DNA of 64,000 nucleotides from Microcoleus sp. (GCA_042408215.1 JAYFMW010000019.1:1-64000); one strand, 5' to 3'; positions 16,173-23,923 are shown, counted from the first letter of the stretch. A program made the numbers and translations. Notes: generated by a model from the sequence alone, not told the origin.

Positions 16173-17132
16173 TTGGTGATTTTAGTGAAAGATAGCAAAG
16201 TCATAGACGTATCAGAAATTATGAGTGTTCCCGCAGCTCCTGCGGGTTACAAATCCGGCTTTGTGGGTATTGTGGGACGCCCGAATGTCGGCAAATCAAC
16301 GCTGATGAATCGGTTGGTGGGGCAGAAAATTGCGATTACTTCGCCAGTGGCGCAGACGACTCGCAACAGACTGCGGGGCATTTTGACGACGCCGGAGGCA
16401 CAAATTATTTTTGTTGATACTCCGGGAATTCATAAGCCACATCACCAATTGGGGAAGGTTTTGCTGCAAAATGCTCAAATAGCGATTAAATCTGTAGATG
16501 TGATTCTATTTGTGGTGGATGGCTCGGTGGAATCGGGAGGGGGCGATCGATATATTGTGGATCTGCTCAGCAATACCGAAGTTCCGGTGATTTTGGGAGT
16601 GAATAAGTTAGACGAACAACCGTCGGATTGTGTGTTGATCGATCGCACTTACGAGCAAATTGTCAATCCTCAGTGGCCCGTTGTCAAATTTTCAGCTCTC
16701 ACAGGCCTTGGAGTCGAGTCCCTGCAACAATTGTTAGTGGAAAATTTAGAAGAAGGGCCTTATTATTATCCGCCCGATTTGGTGACTGACCAGCCAGAAC
16801 GTTTTATTATGGGGGAATTGATTCGGGAACAGATTTTGATGGTGACGCGGGAAGAAGTGCCGCATTCAGTGGCAATTGCGATCGACATGATCGAAGAAGA
16901 ACCGAAAATCACCCGAATTCTCGCTGCAATTCACGTCGAACGCGATTCCCAAAAAGGCATTTTAATTGGTAAAGGTGGGAGTATGCTGAAGGCGATCGGC
17001 AGTGCGGCCCGCGAACAGATTCAAAAGTTAATTGAAGGCCAAGTATATTTGGAGTTATTTGTCAAGGTGCAGCCGAAATGGCGGCAGTCGCGGACCCGTT
17101 TAGCCGAATTGGGCTATCGAGTGGAAGAATAA
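16173..17132 (+). CDS. era: GTPase Era
   Basis: GRPNVGKST, QTTR, DTPG, NKLD, KH domain GILIGKGG. Confidence 0.97.
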   Translation: MVILVKDSKVIDVSEIMSVPAAPAGYKSGFVGIVGRPNVGKSTLMNRLVGQKIAITSPVAQTTRNRLRGILTTPEAQIIFVDTPGIHKPHHQLGKVLLQNAQIAIKSVDVILFVVDGSVESGGGDRYIVDLLSNTEVPVILGVNKLDEQPSDCVLIDRTYEQIVNPQWPVVKFSALTGLGVESLQQLLVENLEEGPYYYPPDLVTDQPERFIMGELIREQILMVTREEVPHSVAIAIDMIEEEPKITRILAAIHVERDSQKGILIGKGGSMLKAIGSAAREQIQKLIEGQVYLELFVKVQPKWRQSRTRLAELGYRVEE

Positions 17133-17327: not shown

Positions 17328-17645
17328 GTGGTAATGTATTTGCCATCAGCATTCTTGCTAGTTATTGCGATCGCGTATTGGCAAAACGCCTATCCTATGA
17401 TGGGTAAAGAGGCTGAGAATATCGATCGGGCTAATCGGTCTGGCTTTAGCGTAATTTCTACGCATCGGCTGCCGAGTCAGGCTTGGTGGGTCAATTATTA
17501 TGAACCGCTCCGTGAGCGGATGCAGCAGATCGAAATCACCCCAATTACTCAATCAGTTATTCGTGAAACTGAAGAAGAGATGAGACTGTTTGAAAAATTC
17601 AGCGACTCCTATGGTTATACGTTCTATATTCTGCAAGCAGCTTAG
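17328..17645 (+). pseudogene. C-terminal fragment of a class I SAM-dependent methyltransferase
   Basis: YWQNAYP...LPSQAWWVNYYEPL...YGYTFYI tail without the N-terminal SAM-binding motif. Confidence 0.6.
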
Positions 17646-17654
17646 GAAAAAGCC

Positions 17655-17742
17655 GTCTAACAATTCCCTTGGAGATGAAAAATTTTATTTATGGGGTATT
17701 ATCAAGATATTTTCCGTATAATTCCGTATAATATGGTTATAT
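17655..17742 (+). other. attC-like cassette boundary (non-canonical stem)
   Basis: GTCTAAC 10 nt after a stop codon; GTTATAT end 88 bp later, 46 nt before the next ATG; arms poorly complementary. Confidence 0.5.
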
Positions 17743-17787
17743 TTCTTTAGCATTAAATGTGCCAACGATAACAAGTGGAGAAAACAG

Positions 17788-18372
17788 ATGTGGGATGAAA
17801 GATACAGTGCAGAAGAGTACGTATATGGCAAAAACCCGAACAAGTTTTTGGAAGCTAACGTCAGCAGTATTCCAAAAGGTAAAGTTCTAAGCTTGGCTGA
17901 AGGAGAAGGGCGGAATGCTGTTTTTCTGGCGAAACAGGGTTACTCTGTAACTGCTGTAGATGCTTCTCTAGTTGGTTTGAATAAGGCTAGAAAGTTGGCA
18001 GAAGAGCATGGGGTTGTTATTGAGTTTATTCAAGCTGATTTAGCAGATTATGATTTAGGCGAAAATCAATGGGATGGAATTGTATCTATATTTTGTCCAT
18101 TGCCTTCTTCAGTAAGAAAACAACTTCATAAAAAAGTTGCAGCAGGGTTAAAACGAAACGGTGTTTTTCTGATTGAGGCTTATACACCCGATCAGTTGAA
18201 GCATGGTACTGGCGGGGGAAATTCCGTAGATGTGATGCAATCTAAAGAATCTTTAAGCCTTGAGTTAGCTGGCTTAAAGTTTCAGCATCTAATTGAGCTT
18301 GAGCGTGAAATAATAGAAGGTATTTATCATACTGGAATTGGAGCAGTTGTTCAGGCGATCGCCGCAAAATAA
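17788..18372 (+). CDS. class I SAM-dependent methyltransferase
   Basis: MWDERY, VLSLAEGEGRNAVFLA, TAVD motif I/II. Confidence 0.9.
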   Translation: MWDERYSAEEYVYGKNPNKFLEANVSSIPKGKVLSLAEGEGRNAVFLAKQGYSVTAVDASLVGLNKARKLAEEHGVVIEFIQADLADYDLGENQWDGIVSIFCPLPSSVRKQLHKKVAAGLKRNGVFLIEAYTPDQLKHGTGGGNSVDVMQSKESLSLELAGLKFQHLIELEREIIEGIYHTGIGAVVQAIAAK

Positions 18373-18397
18373 ATGTAACAACCAGTGAGGAATCGCC

Positions 18398-19717
18398 ATG
18401 AGAATTGACCGACTAGAGATTAAAAACTTCAAAAAATTCTCAGACTATACCCTTAACCTGCATCCCCAATTTACCTTGCTAGTAGGCGACAATGGTACGG
18501 GAAAAACCACTATTCTCGATGCTCTAGCGATCGCTGCGGGCGTTTGGCTAGTCAACTCCCCTGACACTACCCTTAACAATAGTCGTCGCAACATTCTCCC
18601 CTCAGAAATCCGCTTAGAAGCGATCGCCACCGATACCGTTACCCAATTTATTGAACGCAAACCAACCCAAATTACAGCGATTGGCACAATCAACGATCGA
18701 CCCGTTACATGGCTTAGACAAATTAAAACTAACGGCTCTCGTACATCCAACACCGAAGCAAAACAAGCCTTAAAGATTATCTCTACTTTATTTCAACAAG
18801 TCGAATCAGGTGCAAAAATTTGGCTACCTGTTATGGCCTACTACGGCGCAGGACGATCGTGGCTACCTTCCAACCAACGCGATCCCAAAGCTTTAACTAA
18901 CACTCTGCCGTCTCGCCGTTGGGATGCCTTTTATGACTGCTTTGAAGAACGTATTAGAATTACCGATTTACATACTTGGTTTCAAAAAGAAGCGATCGCC
19001 TCAGTCAATCGTCAGGGACAAATGCGTTCGGGATACAACGTGGTAAAGTTTGCCATTTTGCGCTGTATCCCCGACGCTGAGGATCTATGGTTTGATGGCG
19101 ATCTCGGAGAAATTGTGGTAGCGATCGATGGTGAACCCCAACCCTTTAGTAACCTTAGTGCAGGACAAAAAATGATGGTGGCATTGATTGCCGACTTAGC
19201 GATCAAAATTGTCACCCAAAATGCGTCATTTTTAACTGAAGAATTAGATCCAGATCGTGAAAAATTACCTCAAATCTTGCAGCAAACATCAGGCTTAGTA
19301 ATGATTGATGAAATTGACGTGCATTTACATCCAAAATGGCAAAGACGAGTAATTAAAGATTTAAAATCCACCTTTCCCTTAATCCAGTTTGTATGTACGA
19401 CCCATTCTCCGATCATTATTAGTGAAGTCGAAGCAGAATGTATTCGCGTTCTCAAACCTCATGCAGTTACTATAACTCCACAAAGTGCATTAGGGCTTGA
19501 TGCCAATCAAGTCTTAGATGAATTGATGGGAGTCTCAGAACGTAACCGAGAAACAGCCGATAGCCTTCACCAACTTTTCAAACTAATTGATCTTGAAGAC
19601 TTTCAAGCTGCCTATCGAGAAATAGAAATGAATCCCGATATTAAAAGATTAGGTGAACTAGCTCCCGAAATTACTCGTGCTAAAACCTTGATTAAGTTTC
19701 TGGAAGGTGAAGAATGA
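18398..19717 (+). CDS. ABC/AAA-family ATPase, PtuA-like (Septu-type defence)
   Basis: Walker A GDNGTGKT, signature LSAGQK, Walker B VMIDEID, HLHPKWQ, TTHSP; ATGA overlap with HNH gene. Confidence 0.85.
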   Translation: MRIDRLEIKNFKKFSDYTLNLHPQFTLLVGDNGTGKTTILDALAIAAGVWLVNSPDTTLNNSRRNILPSEIRLEAIATDTVTQFIERKPTQITAIGTINDRPVTWLRQIKTNGSRTSNTEAKQALKIISTLFQQVESGAKIWLPVMAYYGAGRSWLPSNQRDPKALTNTLPSRRWDAFYDCFEERIRITDLHTWFQKEAIASVNRQGQMRSGYNVVKFAILRCIPDAEDLWFDGDLGEIVVAIDGEPQPFSNLSAGQKMMVALIADLAIKIVTQNASFLTEELDPDREKLPQILQQTSGLVMIDEIDVHLHPKWQRRVIKDLKSTFPLIQFVCTTHSPIIISEVEAECIRVLKPHAVTITPQSALGLDANQVLDELMGVSERNRETADSLHQLFKLIDLEDFQAAYREIEMNPDIKRLGELAPEITRAKTLIKFLEGEE

Positions 19718-20346
19718 GAAATATTCAAAAAAAATCTGAACCAAAATCTTTAACACAGCATCGAGCTAATACCAATTCTGATTACGATAATTATCCTCAG
19801 AAACAGGATTTACGGGATACACTTGTTGGTGAACAAAAAGGAATTTGTTGTTATTGTATGCAACGAATTAAAGCAGAGTCAAAAAAGATGAAAATTGAGC
19901 ATTGGCAATGTCAAGATAGATATCCCCACCAACAGCTAGACTATAATAACCTTCTGGGAGCTTGTTTAGGAGGTGAAGGACAAGAACCAGAAAGACAGCA
20001 TTGTGATACTAAAAAAGGCAATCGAGATCTCCTTTACAATCCTGCTAACCGATTTGATGATGTTGAGAGTAAACTGCGATTTTTAAGAGATGGACAAATA
20101 GAATCAGATGATCCACAATTTAATCAAGAAATTAACGATGTTCTCAACTTAAACGAAAACCGTTTAGTTACTAATCGTAAAGCAGTGCTAGATGCTTTTC
20201 AACAGGTATTCATGGGAAAAAATCCGACTAAAGCAGGCATGGAAAAAGCATTGCGTGAATGGAATGGTGAAAATGGAGAGGTTCTCCAGCCATTTTGTCA
20301 AGTTGTTGTTTATTACCTTCGCAAGAAACTCAAGAGAATGTCCTGA
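19714..20346 (+). CDS. HNH endonuclease, PtuB/TIGR02646-like
   Basis: EQKGICCYC...IEHW...LDYNNLLGAC...HCDTKKG...LNLN. Confidence 0.85.
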   Translation: MRNIQKKSEPKSLTQHRANTNSDYDNYPQKQDLRDTLVGEQKGICCYCMQRIKAESKKMKIEHWQCQDRYPHQQLDYNNLLGACLGGEGQEPERQHCDTKKGNRDLLYNPANRFDDVESKLRFLRDGQIESDDPQFNQEINDVLNLNENRLVTNRKAVLDAFQQVFMGKNPTKAGMEKALREWNGENGEVLQPFCQVVVYYLRKKLKRMS

Positions 20347-20707
20347 AAGTTTGATTTTACAGCAGTCTAACAATTCCCATCAAAGTGATAAAATAGGGAT
20401 AATTTCATAGCAAGGGCTAAAGCCATTACTATAAAAAAATTAAGCGGGAACTTAGATTTTTTCACTCCCAGAAAGAGCAAAAGCTGAGTGAATTACTTTC
20501 AACGCGATCCCTGAAATCAAGAATCGTGATAATGTAAAGATTTTTATACTTTTGTTCTTAGGTTTGAGGTGGTTGGTATCCTTAGGGGAAAAACAGCGAT
20601 CGGTCGTCATAAAATTTCATTTATGGGGTATTATACAGAAAATTTCCGTTGTTCAGGCGAACGCAGCAAAAGACATATAACAACCGTAGAATTACCTAAA
20701 TTTATAA

Positions 20708-20826
20708 TGTCAACTATGAACTACCGAGATTACATCACGCAAGTTGAAAATTTGTTACGTCGTAATTTTAACGCGATCGAATTATTTTATGAAGATGAGA
20801 ATTTATCGCTGCTTGCTTTATCATAA
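20708..20826 (+). pseudogene. fused remnant of a DUF433 antitoxin N-terminus and a DUF5615 PIN-like toxin C-terminus
   Basis: MNYRDYIT (DUF433-like start) joined directly to QVENLLRRNFNAIELFYEDENLSLLAL (DUF5615-like end). Confidence 0.45.
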
Positions 20827-21231
20827 TGCACAGATGGCTTTGGGCCTCTTTCCACGGTTTTTACAAAGGTCGAAAACAGAATGGCGATCGGCGCAAGAAC
20901 CCATCGGAGTTTGAAGAACGGTTGAATACTGAAATTTATACAACGAATATGGGGCGATAGATTACATTGATTCGAGTGTGAGTAAGTTCTGATGAATGTC
21001 TCGATTTTTCCGATCGCCGAGGGTGTTCGATAGACTCTAATCTCAAATATAATAAATATAGCTTTTTTCAGTGCGACGGCTTAAGTGATTGAGCCGAATG
21101 GTGCGCCGAACTCGATCGAGGAAAGGAGATTCTGATGGGGAGTAAGAAGGGGTTGACATACATCATAAAGCTCAGGTGATTTACGTCCGGTGAGCGTGTT
21201 GGTATTACTACTTTTAAATTAGGGGATTATT

Positions 21232-21810
21232 ATGATTGTAGCCAGAGATCAGGAGCGGTCCTTTACGCCTGAAGAGTATTTTATTTGGGAGGAGCAACAG
21301 TTAGAAAGGCACGAGCTAATCGATGGTCGCGTGTATGCGATGAGTGGCGGGACTAGAAATCACAGTGATATCGCGGGAAACTTTTTAGCGACGATCAAGC
21401 CCCATCTGCGGGGCAGTGGTTGTAAAACATACAATTCTGACTGCCGCGTAAATATCCTCAATACTAGCAACTATACCTATCCCGATCTGAGTGTCACTTG
21501 CGATCCGCGAGATAATTCTAGCACTCAATATATTACCTATCCCTGCTTAATCGTTGAGGTTTTATCGGATAGTACCGAGGCTTACGACCGAGGCAAGAAG
21601 TTTGACAAATATCGCCGCAACCCGAATTTGGTTGATTATGTTTTAGTGAGTTCTGATGAGATGGCGATTGATATTTATCATAAAAATGATGCGGGGGATT
21701 GGTTGATTCTGAGCTATCGAGCGGGCGATCGCGTCGAGCTTAAAGGTATTGGTTTAAGCTGGCCGATCGAGCAATTTTATGAAGAAATTGTTTTCGAGCA
21801 GCAATCTTGA
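21232..21810 (+). CDS. Uma2/DUF820 family endonuclease
   Basis: RHELIDG..YAMSGG..NH, YPDLSVTC, PCLIVEVLS.STEAYDRG.KF..Y. Confidence 0.92.
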   Translation: MIVARDQERSFTPEEYFIWEEQQLERHELIDGRVYAMSGGTRNHSDIAGNFLATIKPHLRGSGCKTYNSDCRVNILNTSNYTYPDLSVTCDPRDNSSTQYITYPCLIVEVLSDSTEAYDRGKKFDKYRRNPNLVDYVLVSSDEMAIDIYHKNDAGDWLILSYRAGDRVELKGIGLSWPIEQFYEEIVFEQQS

Positions 21811-21859
21811 ATTTATTATGCTTAAGTGATGTAGTCTAATCGTGGCGAGTAAGAAGATG

Positions 21860-21889
21860 TTGACATACATCATTAAGCTGTGGTATTAT
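21860..21889 (+). promoter_or_regulatory. putative sigma70 promoter
   Basis: TTGACA, 18 nt spacer, TATTAT with an adjacent TG; same -35 context repeated at 21153. Confidence 0.5.
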
Positions 21890-21970
21890 TCGATTAGATT
21901 CAGTATTGTACCGCAACTGCGATACAATTATATCGTTAAAATAGTACCAAAACCAACCAAGGAGAAACCC

Positions 21971-22189
21971 ATGTTAACCCTAAAAAGGGCAATGTTAACC
22001 CTAAAAATGGCAAGCCAAAAAATCCAACAATTCCCCCCAGAACAACTTAATATTTCAGTTCAATCATTGCCAGAAGCTAAACTAGCGATCGAAGCGCTGC
22101 TGTCGATCCAGTTATCACAGCGATCGATCGAGCAATTCTTCAACTTGAAAAATATATTGTTGAAAATTCCTAAACCAACATTTTTGTAA
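21971..22189 (+). CDS. small hypothetical cassette-like gene
   Basis: GGAG RBS at 21961; follows GTTAAAA end; duplicated ATGTTAACCCTAAAAA start. Confidence 0.45.
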   Translation: MLTLKRAMLTLKMASQKIQQFPPEQLNISVQSLPEAKLAIEALLSIQLSQRSIEQFFNLKNILLKIPKPTFL

Positions 22190-22248
22190 CTCGCCTGCTG
22201 GGATTGAGAGGTATATAGAATTCATTAAACATTGCATCGTAAAGAACG

Positions 22249-22348
22249 GTCGAACAATCCCGTTGCACACCGACCGTACAGAGTCTCGCGGTATTTATAT
22301 CTTATAAACGACATTGTACCGCAACTGCGACATAATTATAAGTTATAC
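22249..22348 (+). other. attC-like site (canonical-looking left arm, divergent right arm)
   Basis: GTCGAAC-AATCC-CGTTGCACACCGACCGTACA ... TGTACCGCAACTGCGA...GTTATAC. Confidence 0.55.
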
Positions 22349-22417
22349 CTCTGTCATCGGGCATAGAAAAGTTGCTTCAAGGTTATCGGTAGGGACTTCA
22401 AAATCAGAGAATTAATT

Positions 22418-22738
22418 ATGGCACTCAACGACTTCAGGGCAGTATTTCTTCCTTACTGTTTAGACAAGCAATCTGACGGACGATACGTAGTGCTTAACAG
22501 AGGATACAAGCCGATTGGCTTCAAAACAAGAGAAAATATCAAGTATGAGGACTATCCTATTTGTGTTGAATTGAAAGGTATAGGTTCAGTAACAGCGGCG
22601 AAGCTTTCTTTCGAGGGCGATCCAAATACAGATAGAATTTATTTGTACAATGATGGCTGTGTTCCAACACAGAGTGCTGAACATATGAAAAATTATCTTG
22701 AACGCTTAAAAATCTTGGCAAAACTCAAAGTTGAATAA
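22418..22738 (+). CDS. hypothetical protein in a gene cassette
   Basis: 106-aa ORF (FLPYCL...YVVLNRGYKPIGF...IYLYNDG) between attC-like 22249-22348 and attC 22805-22891. Confidence 0.75.
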   Translation: MALNDFRAVFLPYCLDKQSDGRYVVLNRGYKPIGFKTRENIKYEDYPICVELKGIGSVTAAKLSFEGDPNTDRIYLYNDGCVPTQSAEHMKNYLERLKILAKLKVE

Positions 22739-22804
22739 TCAAGCAATAATAATAAGCTAGCAACATTGAATTGACCATTGAAGAATTGCTAGAGTCTCGG
22801 TGAG

Positions 22805-22891
22805 GTCTAACAAGCCGGTTCCACCCGACCACCGAAAGGTTATCTGTTAATGTTTAAGTTTAATAGTGGCGGGTGAAGCGGAACGTTATCT
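22805..22891 (+). other. integron attC recombination site
   Basis: R'' GTCTAAC, 5-nt spacer, GGTT[C]CACCCG[A]CCAC ... GTGGCGGGTGAAGC, GGAAC, R' GTTATCT; the unpaired C and A give bottom-strand extrahelical G and T. Confidence 0.8.
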
Positions 22892-22939
22892 CGTAAACGC
22901 AGCCTGACTTTGGAGATGATTCGGAAGCTCGATCGAGAA

Positions 22940-23923
22940 TTAAGAATTCCGACGCAGATTTTCATTTCCCCGTGCCCTCGCGCCGGGGAGAATGTCAACA
23001 ACTATCAAGGGCAACTCAACCGAACTAGGTTTAGCAACATGAGGCAGCCCCCAGCCTAATTTTTCCCGCAAAACGTGGAAAAACTCAGGAGGTTGCACCC
23101 GAACGAAGCGCGCCTGGTACGGAGCTCGTTCTACTTGCACCCAATCTTCCGGCCGAACATAACACCCGCCGTTCCCGTCTACCACCATTACCAGCCGGTT
23201 CGGACTCGCGGGCAAAATCTTCACCGGCTCGGTGTTGGAAAACACCAAGGCCCGCGAAGCCATAGAATGGGGGCAAAGAGGCACTAACTGCAACACTGGC
23301 ACTCCCGGAATAATTACAGGGCCGCCGGCCGACAGCGCGTAAGCTGTCGATCCAGTCGGAGTCGAGATAATTACTCCATCTGCGGCAATGTCAACAGCAG
23401 CGTGCTGGCCGATCGCCACTTCAAAATGGCACATACAAGTCAGGGGTTCGCGGTGCAGCACCATTTCATTCAAACACAGCGCTTCCCAGAGGCAGTCATT
23501 TTCCCGGAACAGCCGCACTGCTAGCATGGACCTTTCTTCTATTTCGTATTCTCCGGCGATCGCCTTTTCCAAAGCTTGTGGGAGCAAGTTCAGGTAAGTC
23601 TCTGTCAAAAAGCCCATGTGACCGGTATTCACAGTCAGCAGTGGCACTCCGATGGGAGCGACTTGGCGAAATGCAGACAGCACCGTGCCGTCGCCTCCTA
23701 ACACCACTGCAAACTCCATGTCGCTGTCAAAACCAGGGGGGACGAGTTGGTCGATCGGAGTGTGGCACATGGGGCGATCGGGGCTAGAATAGCCCAGAAT
23801 TCCCCCGGAACCGGAAACCGCGCAGACATCCCAGCCGCGGGCAGTCAGCTTGTCTTTCAACTCAAGAGCGACGCGACAAGCTATAGGTTTAACGTCGTTG
23901 TATATAATCCCAGCTTTCGGCAC
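22940..23923 (-). CDS. nadK: NAD(+) kinase
   Basis: [33 protein letters not shown]-terminus extended past ...SVELP. Confidence 0.95.

What the first reader, a model, noticed from the sequence alone, without database searches (positions are those of the whole stretch)
17328..22891. Integrase-less integron-like cassette array (CALIN) between era and nadK carrying defence-type cargo
Seen: every gene in this 5.5-kb AT-richer island is on the + strand. The intergenic gaps repeatedly show an R''-like box shortly after a stop codon: GTCTAAC 17655, ATGTAAC 18373, GTCTAAC 20365, GTCTAAT 21834, GTCGAAC 22249, GTCTAAC 22805. GTT-starting R'-like boxes lie shortly before the next gene or at the array end: 17736, 21935, 22342, 22885. 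Two cassettes show the expected self-complementarity of their own ends, GTTATAT/ATGTAAC and GTTATAC/GTCTAAC (6 of 7 each). Established: this layout is how IntI-excised cassettes are arranged. Inference: a decaying attC array in a filamentous cyanobacterium, acting as a hotspot for methyltransferase, Septu-like, Uma2 and TA genes, served in trans or historically by an IntI not in this window.
Basis: partly seen in the sequence, partly recalled or inferred. Interest (0 to 1): 0.82.

Follow-up and report, generated by a model that had tools for sequence, protein, structure and literature searches.

The report
Broken integron that still swaps genes
This stretch is the wreck of a gene-capturing integron whose integrase gene is cut to a stub, yet across the cyanobacterial genus Microcoleus the same spot holds dozens of different foreign genes, some of them related to anti-virus genes, between two constant flanks, likely because strains swap them by ordinary homologous recombination.

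Summary
An attC model trained on relatives finds one complete attC (22805-22891, 64 bits). Of the other boxes, two mark attI-type docking sites, several are attC stubs, and two are coincidental. The 'absent' integrase is present as a 40-codon intI stub inside the island (21040-21159, minus strand, 82% identical to an intact IntI).

Across Microcoleus the era-nadK interval is 2.0-16.3 kb (49 complete cases). It is built from stacked one-slot units: intI stub, promoter, attI, usually one cassette, attC, then a constant higA-antitoxin stub (72 of 84 attC sites end in it). None of 79 genomes has an intact IntI, yet 20 units sharing one intI deletion carry 14 different first cassettes. A cassette travels with its own attI haplotype, not with the host's era gene.

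Best reading: cassettes are loaded by IntI in rare strains (96%-identical intact IntI proteins exist in environmental data) and spread by homologous recombination between conserved flanks, like class 1 5'-CS/3'-CS swapping. IntI acting in trans is the main rival. The scan noted stacked integrase-less attI sites before, in another genome. New variant of a known kind.

The parts
16173..17132 (+). era GTPase, left anchor gene of the hotspot
   Evidence: Pfam MMR_HSR1 + KH_2; found in 79 of 79 genus genomes
17366..17645 (+). 3' fragment of a methyltransferase cassette gene; homology begins at a HIP1 octamer
   Evidence: 95% identical over 301 nt to the first cassette of an integron in another family (L023)
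17655..17742 (+). attC stub (R'' plus about 7 nt) fused to a probable degenerate attI of a second integron type, ending in the GTT box at 17736
   Evidence: model R1 12.7 bits, E 0.56; only 11-18 nt motif matches to attI regions of other cyanobacterial intI: weak
17736..18379 (+). cassette with a class I SAM methyltransferase (gene 17788-18372) whose attC is cut after R''
   Evidence: Methyltransf_25 E 5e-14; perfect 7/7 end complementarity in L024
18398..19717 (+). Septu-type PtuA ATPase
   Evidence: PADLOC PtuA E 3e-114; NCBIfam PtuA below its cut-off
19714..20346 (+). Septu-type PtuB HNH nuclease
   Evidence: PADLOC PtuB E 1e-78; TIGR02646 above cut-off
20365..20378 (+). attC stub (R'' plus 7 nt), same as at 17655
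   Evidence: repeat D8; no model hit
20611..20685 (+). deleted duplicate of the 17679-18383 unit (attI-like motif, last codons of the methyltransferase, R'' at 20675)
   Evidence: repeats D4 and D5, 87% identical
20716..21038 (+). fused scraps of recurrent genes: 5' end of a DUF433 gene, 3' end of a DUF5615 gene, 3' region of an AAA ATPase gene
   Evidence: pieces shared with 20-35 other intervals; families; assignment of the scraps is by position in those relatives
21040..21159 (-). intI stub: first 40 codons of an integron integrase, cut at a deletion junction shared across the genus
   Evidence: 82.5% identical to the N-terminus of intact IntI P0004, E 2.5e-13, best hit in the genome; 34 of 56 stubs share the junction
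21136..21172 (+). first copy of the Pc -35 region overlapping the intI start; its -10 box and attI are replaced
   Evidence: repeat D3
21232..21810 (+). Uma2 family putative endonuclease
   Evidence: Pfam PF05685 E 5e-36
21843..21932 (+). Pc-like promoter (-35 at 21860, extended -10 ending 21889) and attI with palindrome and L box; its R site is lost
   Evidence: best promoter match of the region, 11 of 12; module conserved in 34 of 49 intervals; alignment breakpoint at 21932
21933..22287 (+). internally deleted gene piece followed by the left half of an attC (22249-22287)
   Evidence: intact gene and intact attC in L057
22288..22348 (+). second attI (palindrome, L box 22330-22336, 5-nt spacer, R site 22342-22348) fused onto the half attC: an attC/attI hybrid
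   Evidence: same layout as attI upstream of IntI genes in L009, L017, L018, L020, L023
22342..22891 (+). the one intact cassette: 106-aa protein of unknown function (22418-22738) plus its attC
   Evidence: 96.5% identical to L148, where it sits directly behind stub-Pc-attI; no Pfam, PADLOC or NCBIfam hit, Atlas best 0.77
22805..22891 (+). complete attC site
   Evidence: 64.4 bits, E 1e-14 with a model that excluded it
22885..22969 (+). constant 3' flank: 3' end of a higA-type antitoxin gene, joined at an internal GTT
   Evidence: 99 copies in 54 of 60 interval sequences; intact higA genes with the same reading, two with GTT at the junction, L244 and L245
22940..23923 (-). nadK, right anchor gene; an extra base at 23009 removes its stop in this assembly
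   Evidence: Pfam NAD_kinase; the base is absent in the 7 runs that cover it

Best explanation
The island is a decayed chromosomal integron site made of stacked one-slot units (intI stub, Pc promoter, attI, usually one cassette, attC, constant higA stub), and its cargo is likely swapped between Microcoleus strains by homologous recombination through those constant flanks after cassettes were likely loaded by an intact cognate integrase in rare donor strains. Shown: the unit structure, the stub, the constant flanks, cargo diversity, and the lack of intact IntI in the 79 genomes searched. Inferred: (1) an ancestral integron was joined to a GTT inside a higA gene by IntI recombination at a secondary site; (2) donors with intact IntI inserted single cassettes at attI; (3) recipients took up DNA (ComEC and DprA are encoded) and replaced or added units by RecA crossovers in the stub/Pc segment and in the higA stub or other repeated TA scraps; (4) unequal crossovers and short-homology deletions, modestly enriched at HIP1, stacked and eroded the units into this mosaic; (5) Pc would express the cargo. 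In this genome only the last cassette (22342-22891) would still be a substrate for an incoming IntI.
For: Stub, Pc and attI lie in the canonical divergent layout. The attI has the L box / 5-nt spacer / GTT form seen upstream of other cyanobacterial intI genes. 35 of 60 interval sequences carry IntI fragments, all on the minus strand. 72 of 84 attC hits end in the same higA stub, and 29 of 38 attI sites have exactly one attC before it. 37 attI sites lead into 29 different cassettes; 73 terminal attC follow 55 different sequences. 20 units with the same intI deletion carry 14 different first cassettes. In 6 of 7 same-cassette pairs the 90 nt before attI differ by at most 3.3% (median 11% for 344 different-cassette pairs), while the distal stub differs by 10-14% in 4 of the 7 and the hosts are no closer than usual (era 2.7-11.7%, median 5.7%). 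attI-proximal distance is uncorrelated with era distance (rho -0.07), whereas era and nadK correlate at 0.75. One run holds a contig with 4830 other bases between the same two flanks. Intact IntI proteins 96% identical to the Microcoleus fragments exist in environmental assemblies (P0001, P0002). ComEC and DprA are present. Integrase-independent, RecA-dependent cassette replacement between conserved segments is demonstrated for class 1 integrons (PMC3410848, passages read).
Against: No experiment, and no donor contig showing intact intI + this attI + the higA flank: the metagenome and viral scans found none, and P0002's DNA context could not be fetched. The 3' flank does not co-segregate with the terminal cassette (distance 0.091 for both same- and different-cassette pairs), which fits exchange exactly at the attC crossover by IntI as well as crossovers in a short flank. 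Only 7 same-cassette pairs, and they are not independent. The conserved flanks are short (about 200 and 55-100 nt) and about 10% divergent, which is marginal for RecA; crossovers may use era, nadK or TA scraps instead. The predicted empty site attI|higA was found in 0 of 144 family genomes. Most genomes are drafts, so an intact intI could be unassembled. 30 of the 84 attC hits were training sequences chosen for lying next to the flank (42 of the other 54 also do).
Confidence: 0.58

Rival explanations
1. The orphan attI and attC sites are still serviced by an integrase supplied in trans (a plasmid, a transient integron or incoming DNA). A double exchange at attI and at the resident attC replaces the cassette and keeps one slot.
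For: Junctions are exact at GTT on both sides. The 3' flank haplotype is independent of the cassette. attI and Pc stay well conserved next to a dead intI. A cyanobacterial plasmid encodes an IntI, 56% identical.
Against: The attI-proximal haplotype follows the cassette and not the host. No intact IntI of any type in 79 genus genomes, and none in viral contigs. It does not explain the duplication of whole units, including stub and higA flank (26 of 49 intervals have two or more flanks).
Confidence: 0.25
2. The locus is a frozen fossil. An ancestral large array was assembled while intI was intact, and today's differences come from independent deletions and vertical descent.
For: Heavy decay and many gene scraps; several independent intI deletions exist; Xanthomonas arrays froze after intI loss (10.1101/2025.06.18.660453, passages read).
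Against: Deletion from one array would not leave 55 different cassettes each ending exactly at the same flank with intact attC sites. Near-identical cassettes (0-2% different) occur in hosts 4-12% apart at era, and hosts under 3% apart carry different cassettes in 20 pairs.
Confidence: 0.12
3. One reading: a classical CALIN of six or seven attC-delimited cassettes inserted at a secondary site, with no integrase nearby.
For: One complete attC and three or four R'' stubs, co-oriented genes, low GC; 20 of 49 relatives' intervals have two or more attC hits and a program would label them CALIN.
Against: One attC only in this window; the GTT boxes are attI-derived or coincidental; an intI stub lies inside.
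Confidence: 0.04

Closest known systems
CALIN and SALIN elements (Cury et al. 2016, PMC4889954; Loot et al., bioRxiv 10.1101/2022.09.11.507474; passages read)
   Same: attC-bearing cassettes with no intact integrase in the genome; integrons in Cyanobacteria are already reported.
   Different: Here attI, Pc and an intI stub are retained (95% of CALINs had no recognisable intI pseudogene in that study), the window has one attC, and the repeated unit is the whole platform, not the cassette.
Xanthomonas ilvD-linked chromosomal integron (bioRxiv 10.1101/2025.06.18.660453; passages read)
   Same: Genus-wide integron at a fixed chromosomal address, intI mostly inactivated, large cassette diversity.
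   Different: There, strains with the same intI lesion usually have identical multi-cassette arrays. Here one shared deletion goes with 14 first cassettes in 20 units, units have one slot, and a constant 3' flank exists.
Class 1 integron 5'-CS/3'-CS with cassette replacement by homologous recombination (Domingues et al. 2012, PMC3410848; passages read)
   Same: Conserved intI-attI segment and conserved truncated-gene 3' segment flanking variable cassettes; exchange without integrase.
   Different: Chromosomal, environmental, flanks only about 55-200 nt, units stacked in tandem, different IntI lineage (53% identical to IntI1); the mechanism here is inferred, not tested.
attG secondary sites (bioRxiv 10.1101/2022.09.11.507474) and delta-attI-type cassettes (PMC12901181, abstract only)
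   Same: The higA junction is a GTT inside a gene, fitting the GWT attG consensus; 22249-22348 is an attC/attI hybrid.
   Different: One such junction became a genus-wide constant flank.
Septu PtuAB anti-phage system
   Same: Adjacent ATPase and HNH genes matching PADLOC PtuA and PtuB over their full length.
   Different: Activity untested; no reverse transcriptase gene in the island, so not the retron-linked form at this site.

Membership tests
CALIN | [quoted passage not shown] | tested here: not met
   one significant hit with model R1 in the window; IntegronFinder's own model was not available
CALIN | no intact intI nearby | tested here: met
   best TIGR02249 score in the genome 29 bits against a cut-off of 265; only a 40-codon stub
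Integron (complete) | intact IntI with the integron-specific insertion | tested here: not met
   stub only; 0 of 79 genus genomes over the cut-off; the cognate intact proteins P0002 and P0004 pass it
Integron (complete) | attI next to the 5' end of intI, with cassettes on the opposite strand | tested here: met
   layout in relatives such as L080, L142, L148; interrupted by Uma2 in the window; conservation drops after GTT (GTT itself was required by the search)
Integron (complete) | Pc promoter driving the cassettes | tested here: inconclusive
   11 of 12 consensus match at 21860-21889, conserved across the genus; transcription not measured
Integron (complete) | attC with R''/R' boxes and a bottom-strand hairpin with unpaired bases | tested here: met
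   covariation in 8 of 12 pairs; window site 64.4 bits; its folding energy alone was unremarkable, z -0.9
Integron (complete) | IntI-catalysed attI x attC recombination | not testable with these tools
   needs a recombination assay
SALIN | single attC with no other att site or integrase gene nearby | tested here: not met
   single attC, but two attI copies and an intI stub lie within 2 kb
Class 1 integron | IntI1, attI1 and qacEdelta1-sul1 3'-CS | tested here: not met
   cognate IntI 53% identical to IntI1; 3' flank is higA-derived; it resembles class 1 in layout only
Septu | adjacent PtuA ATPase and PtuB HNH genes | tested here: met
Septu | anti-phage activity | not testable with these tools
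   needs a phage challenge

The most novel reading that the evidence does not exclude
Oscillatorialean cyanobacteria run integrons in a different mode: one-slot platforms with a fixed 3' flank that grow by stacking whole units and are refreshed across a genus by recombination, so a rare integrase-bearing minority loads cassettes for an integrase-free majority. The same design arose separately, with another 3' flank and intact integrases, in G133 (6 intI copies or stubs; 6 of 12 attC end in one constant segment).
Probability: 0.4. Interest if true: 0.75.

Novelty: new variant of a known kind. Interest (0 to 1): 0.58.

Why it matters
Integrase-less integron remnants are usually read as frozen fossils or passive reservoirs. 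A genus-wide site where cargo keeps turning over after integrase loss makes it directly testable how CALIN-like elements stay dynamic, in a globally dominant soil-crust and river-mat cyanobacterium. It also gives a fixed address for mining cassette cargo: 21 of 108 representative proteins scanned match PADLOC models at E up to 1e-15, including CBASS, type I R-M, GmrSD, AbiTii and NucC-like genes (several other matches are generic kinases or enzymes), and many cassette genes have no family. Finally, it defines a cyanobacterial attI/Pc sequence, which integron-finding programs generally lack.

Tried and rejected
Rfam scan of the island: three chance hits only. Single-strand folding of the six candidate attC sites was not discriminating (z from -1.9 to +1.3). 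A home-made attC heuristic gave many false hits on both strands (51 plus, 58 minus) and was replaced by the covariance model.

I first read the 95-nt module as a Uma2-linked promoter or an attC right arm; rejected once the intI start codon was found inside it. I considered the 3' flank to be a cassette start; rejected because it reads as the HigA C-terminus and intact genes exist.

Search for the empty attI|higA site: 0 of 144 genomes. Search for a donor with intact cognate intI: metagenome scan 4 loci, none informative (scan stopped at 18 of 64 parts); viral contigs none; plasmids only distant integrases.

HIP1 at breakpoints: enriched but modest (CGATCG 183 of 2226 against 87 expected; the octamer 42 against 12). 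HSP ends are noisy, so it is kept as a minor factor. Atlas search of the 106-aa protein: best 0.77, no lead. Rows dropped: the weakest of 85 attC hits (E 0.49); L072 (nadK inverted) in interval statistics; 11 of 119 representative proteins; 29 genus genomes lacked era and nadK on one contig, and I fetched partial sides for 6 of them. The own-genome attC search scored 150 of 2179 candidates, so 10 sites is a minimum. No supplements were read.
Full report
Observation. Three GTCTAAC boxes against 0.14 expected show a real signal, although a loose R'' box follows 18% of all long ORFs. The cargo is a methyltransferase fragment, an intact methyltransferase, Septu-type PtuA and PtuB, Uma2 and a 106-aa unknown.

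Only one attC. I built a covariance model from 30 attC sites of relatives, trimmed at GTT and excluding the window's own site; 8 of its 12 pairs covary. In the 64-kb window it finds 22805-22887 at 64.4 bits and nothing else significant. The sites at 17655, 18373, 20365 and 22249 are left-hand stubs; for 22249 the intact site and intact upstream gene survive in L057. The genome has at least 10 attC sites at about eight places (150 of 2179 candidates scored).

The GTT boxes are mostly attI. A module of about 95 nt (promoter, palindrome, L box, 5-nt spacer, GTT) occurs twice in the island and in 34 of 49 complete era-nadK intervals; conservation falls right after GTT. The same layout precedes intI genes of other cyanobacteria. 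An exact pattern found 84 stretches in the species collection, mostly in records titled Microcoleus or Tychonema. The -35 box overlaps the start of a minus-strand reading frame that is the first 40 codons of an integron integrase: window 21040-21159, 82.5% identical to intact P0004, the best IntI match in the genome. So the integrase relic is inside the island. The box at 22342 is a true attI R site. The box at 21935 belongs to another recurrent piece joined at 21932, and 17736 resembles a second attI type on motif evidence only.

The locus across the genus. era and nadK converge in 49 complete cases, 2.0-16.3 kb apart (median 7.8 kb); one further genome has nadK inverted. IntI fragments occur in 35 of 60 interval sequences, always on the minus strand, but none of 79 genomes has an IntI over the family cut-off, and a search with the cognate protein finds only fragments in 7 of 78. 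On the right, 72 of 84 attC hits end in one constant sequence, present 99 times in 54 of 60 sequences. It is the 3' end of a higA-type antitoxin gene: intact genes were found in 8 of 11 more distant hits examined, two with GTT exactly at the junction. Of 38 attI sites, 29 have one attC before that flank, 5 have two, 1 has none and 3 have no flank downstream. 26 of 49 intervals carry two or more flanks. The repeating unit is therefore stub-Pc-attI-cassette-attC-higA stub, interleaved with recurrent TA and ATPase genes and their scraps. L148 shows the window's last cassette in the uninterrupted unit.

Turnover after integrase loss. 37 attI sites lead into 29 different cassettes, and 73 terminal attC follow 55 different sequences. 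34 of 56 stubs share one deletion junction; the 20 of these with an intact attI carry 14 different first cassettes. In Xanthomonas, by contrast, strains with the same intI lesion usually have identical arrays (bioRxiv 10.1101/2025.06.18.660453, passages).

Mechanism. In 6 of 7 pairs sharing a first cassette the 90 nt before attI differ by at most 3.3%, against a median of 11% in 344 other pairs. The distal stub differs by 10-14% in 4 of the 7, and the hosts are not unusually close. attI-proximal distance does not follow era distance (rho -0.07), whereas nadK does (0.75). This is what crossovers within the stub/promoter segment predict; insertion into a resident attI would leave the haplotype with the host. 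One sequencing run holds a contig with 4830 different bases between the same flanks. Intact integrases 96% identical to the fragments exist in environmental assemblies, ComEC and DprA are encoded, and extensive recombination and gene transfer are reported for the genus (PMC10923798, passages). Replacement of cassettes between conserved segments without integrase is demonstrated for class 1 integrons (PMC3410848, passages). Against this: the 3' flank haplotype is independent of the cassette, the sample of pairs is small and related, the flanks are short, no empty site was found in 144 genomes, and no donor contig was recovered. IntI acting in trans remains a serious rival, and the two routes may both operate. 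Breakpoints are two- to threefold enriched at HIP1 sequences, a minor contribution.

A parallel case. G133, another genus of the family, has six intI copies or stubs within 50 kb, two of them intact, and 6 of its 12 attC hits there end in a different constant segment. The one-slot, stacked design is thus not unique to this site.

What is known. CALIN, SALIN, attG sites, attC/attI hybrids and cyanobacterial integrons are described (PMC4889954 and bioRxiv 10.1101/2022.09.11.507474, passages; PMC12901181, abstract). I found no paper on integrons in Microcoleus or on this unit structure in eight searches of the open library (listings and abstract starts), and the main Microcoleus population paper does not contain the word integron; subscription papers and supplements were not searched. 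The general rules for attI and attC layout and the name HigA for the antitoxin are from my own knowledge; the HigA label has only indirect support from calls (a related gene matched PADLOC PD-Lambda-2_B). The scan itself noted an attI-docked cassette elsewhere in this genome (e1-8289355) and stacked integrase-less attI sites in another genome (e1-8373129).

Verdict. New variant of a known kind; interest 0.58.

Noticed in passing
window 23009 (nadK 3' end): An extra base removes the nadK stop and extends the frame by about 20 codons; it is absent from the contigs of all 7 runs that cover it, so it is probably an assembly error or private change.
   Followed up: yes
G133:C1:4450000-4511000 (L209-L212): Tandem stack of six intI copies or stubs, each with attI and one or two cassettes, with its own constant 3' segment and interleaved TA genes; two integrases are intact.
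   Followed up: partly
G000:C20:391400-391620 and C13:17790-18790: Two more copies of the Pc/attI module in the same genome; the C20 one precedes a cold-shock-like gene and a truncated EF-Tu-like gene, with an attC about 1.9 kb downstream.
   Followed up: partly
L086, L087, L092, L093: A second IntI type survives as N-terminal stubs with its own attI elsewhere in several Microcoleus genomes.
   Followed up: partly
L077 (G008:C20:1268-1909): A GC-richer, unrelated intI 5' half with attI and a GNAT cassette, fused to a histidine kinase gene piece in a close relative.
   Followed up: no
L083:7388-8976; L052:3793-10214; L066, L068, L069: Cargo at this hotspot includes a CBASS cyclase plus 4TM effector, a whole type I R-M operon between attI and attC, and a nitric oxide reductase gene block.
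   Followed up: no
L010 (G053:C143): A non-coding stretch that looks like a group II intron-type RNA lies just after attI of an intI gene; judged by eye, not tested.
   Followed up: no
window 17366; 21010; 22084; 22935: Several mosaic junctions fall at or next to the HIP1 core CGATCG.
   Followed up: partly
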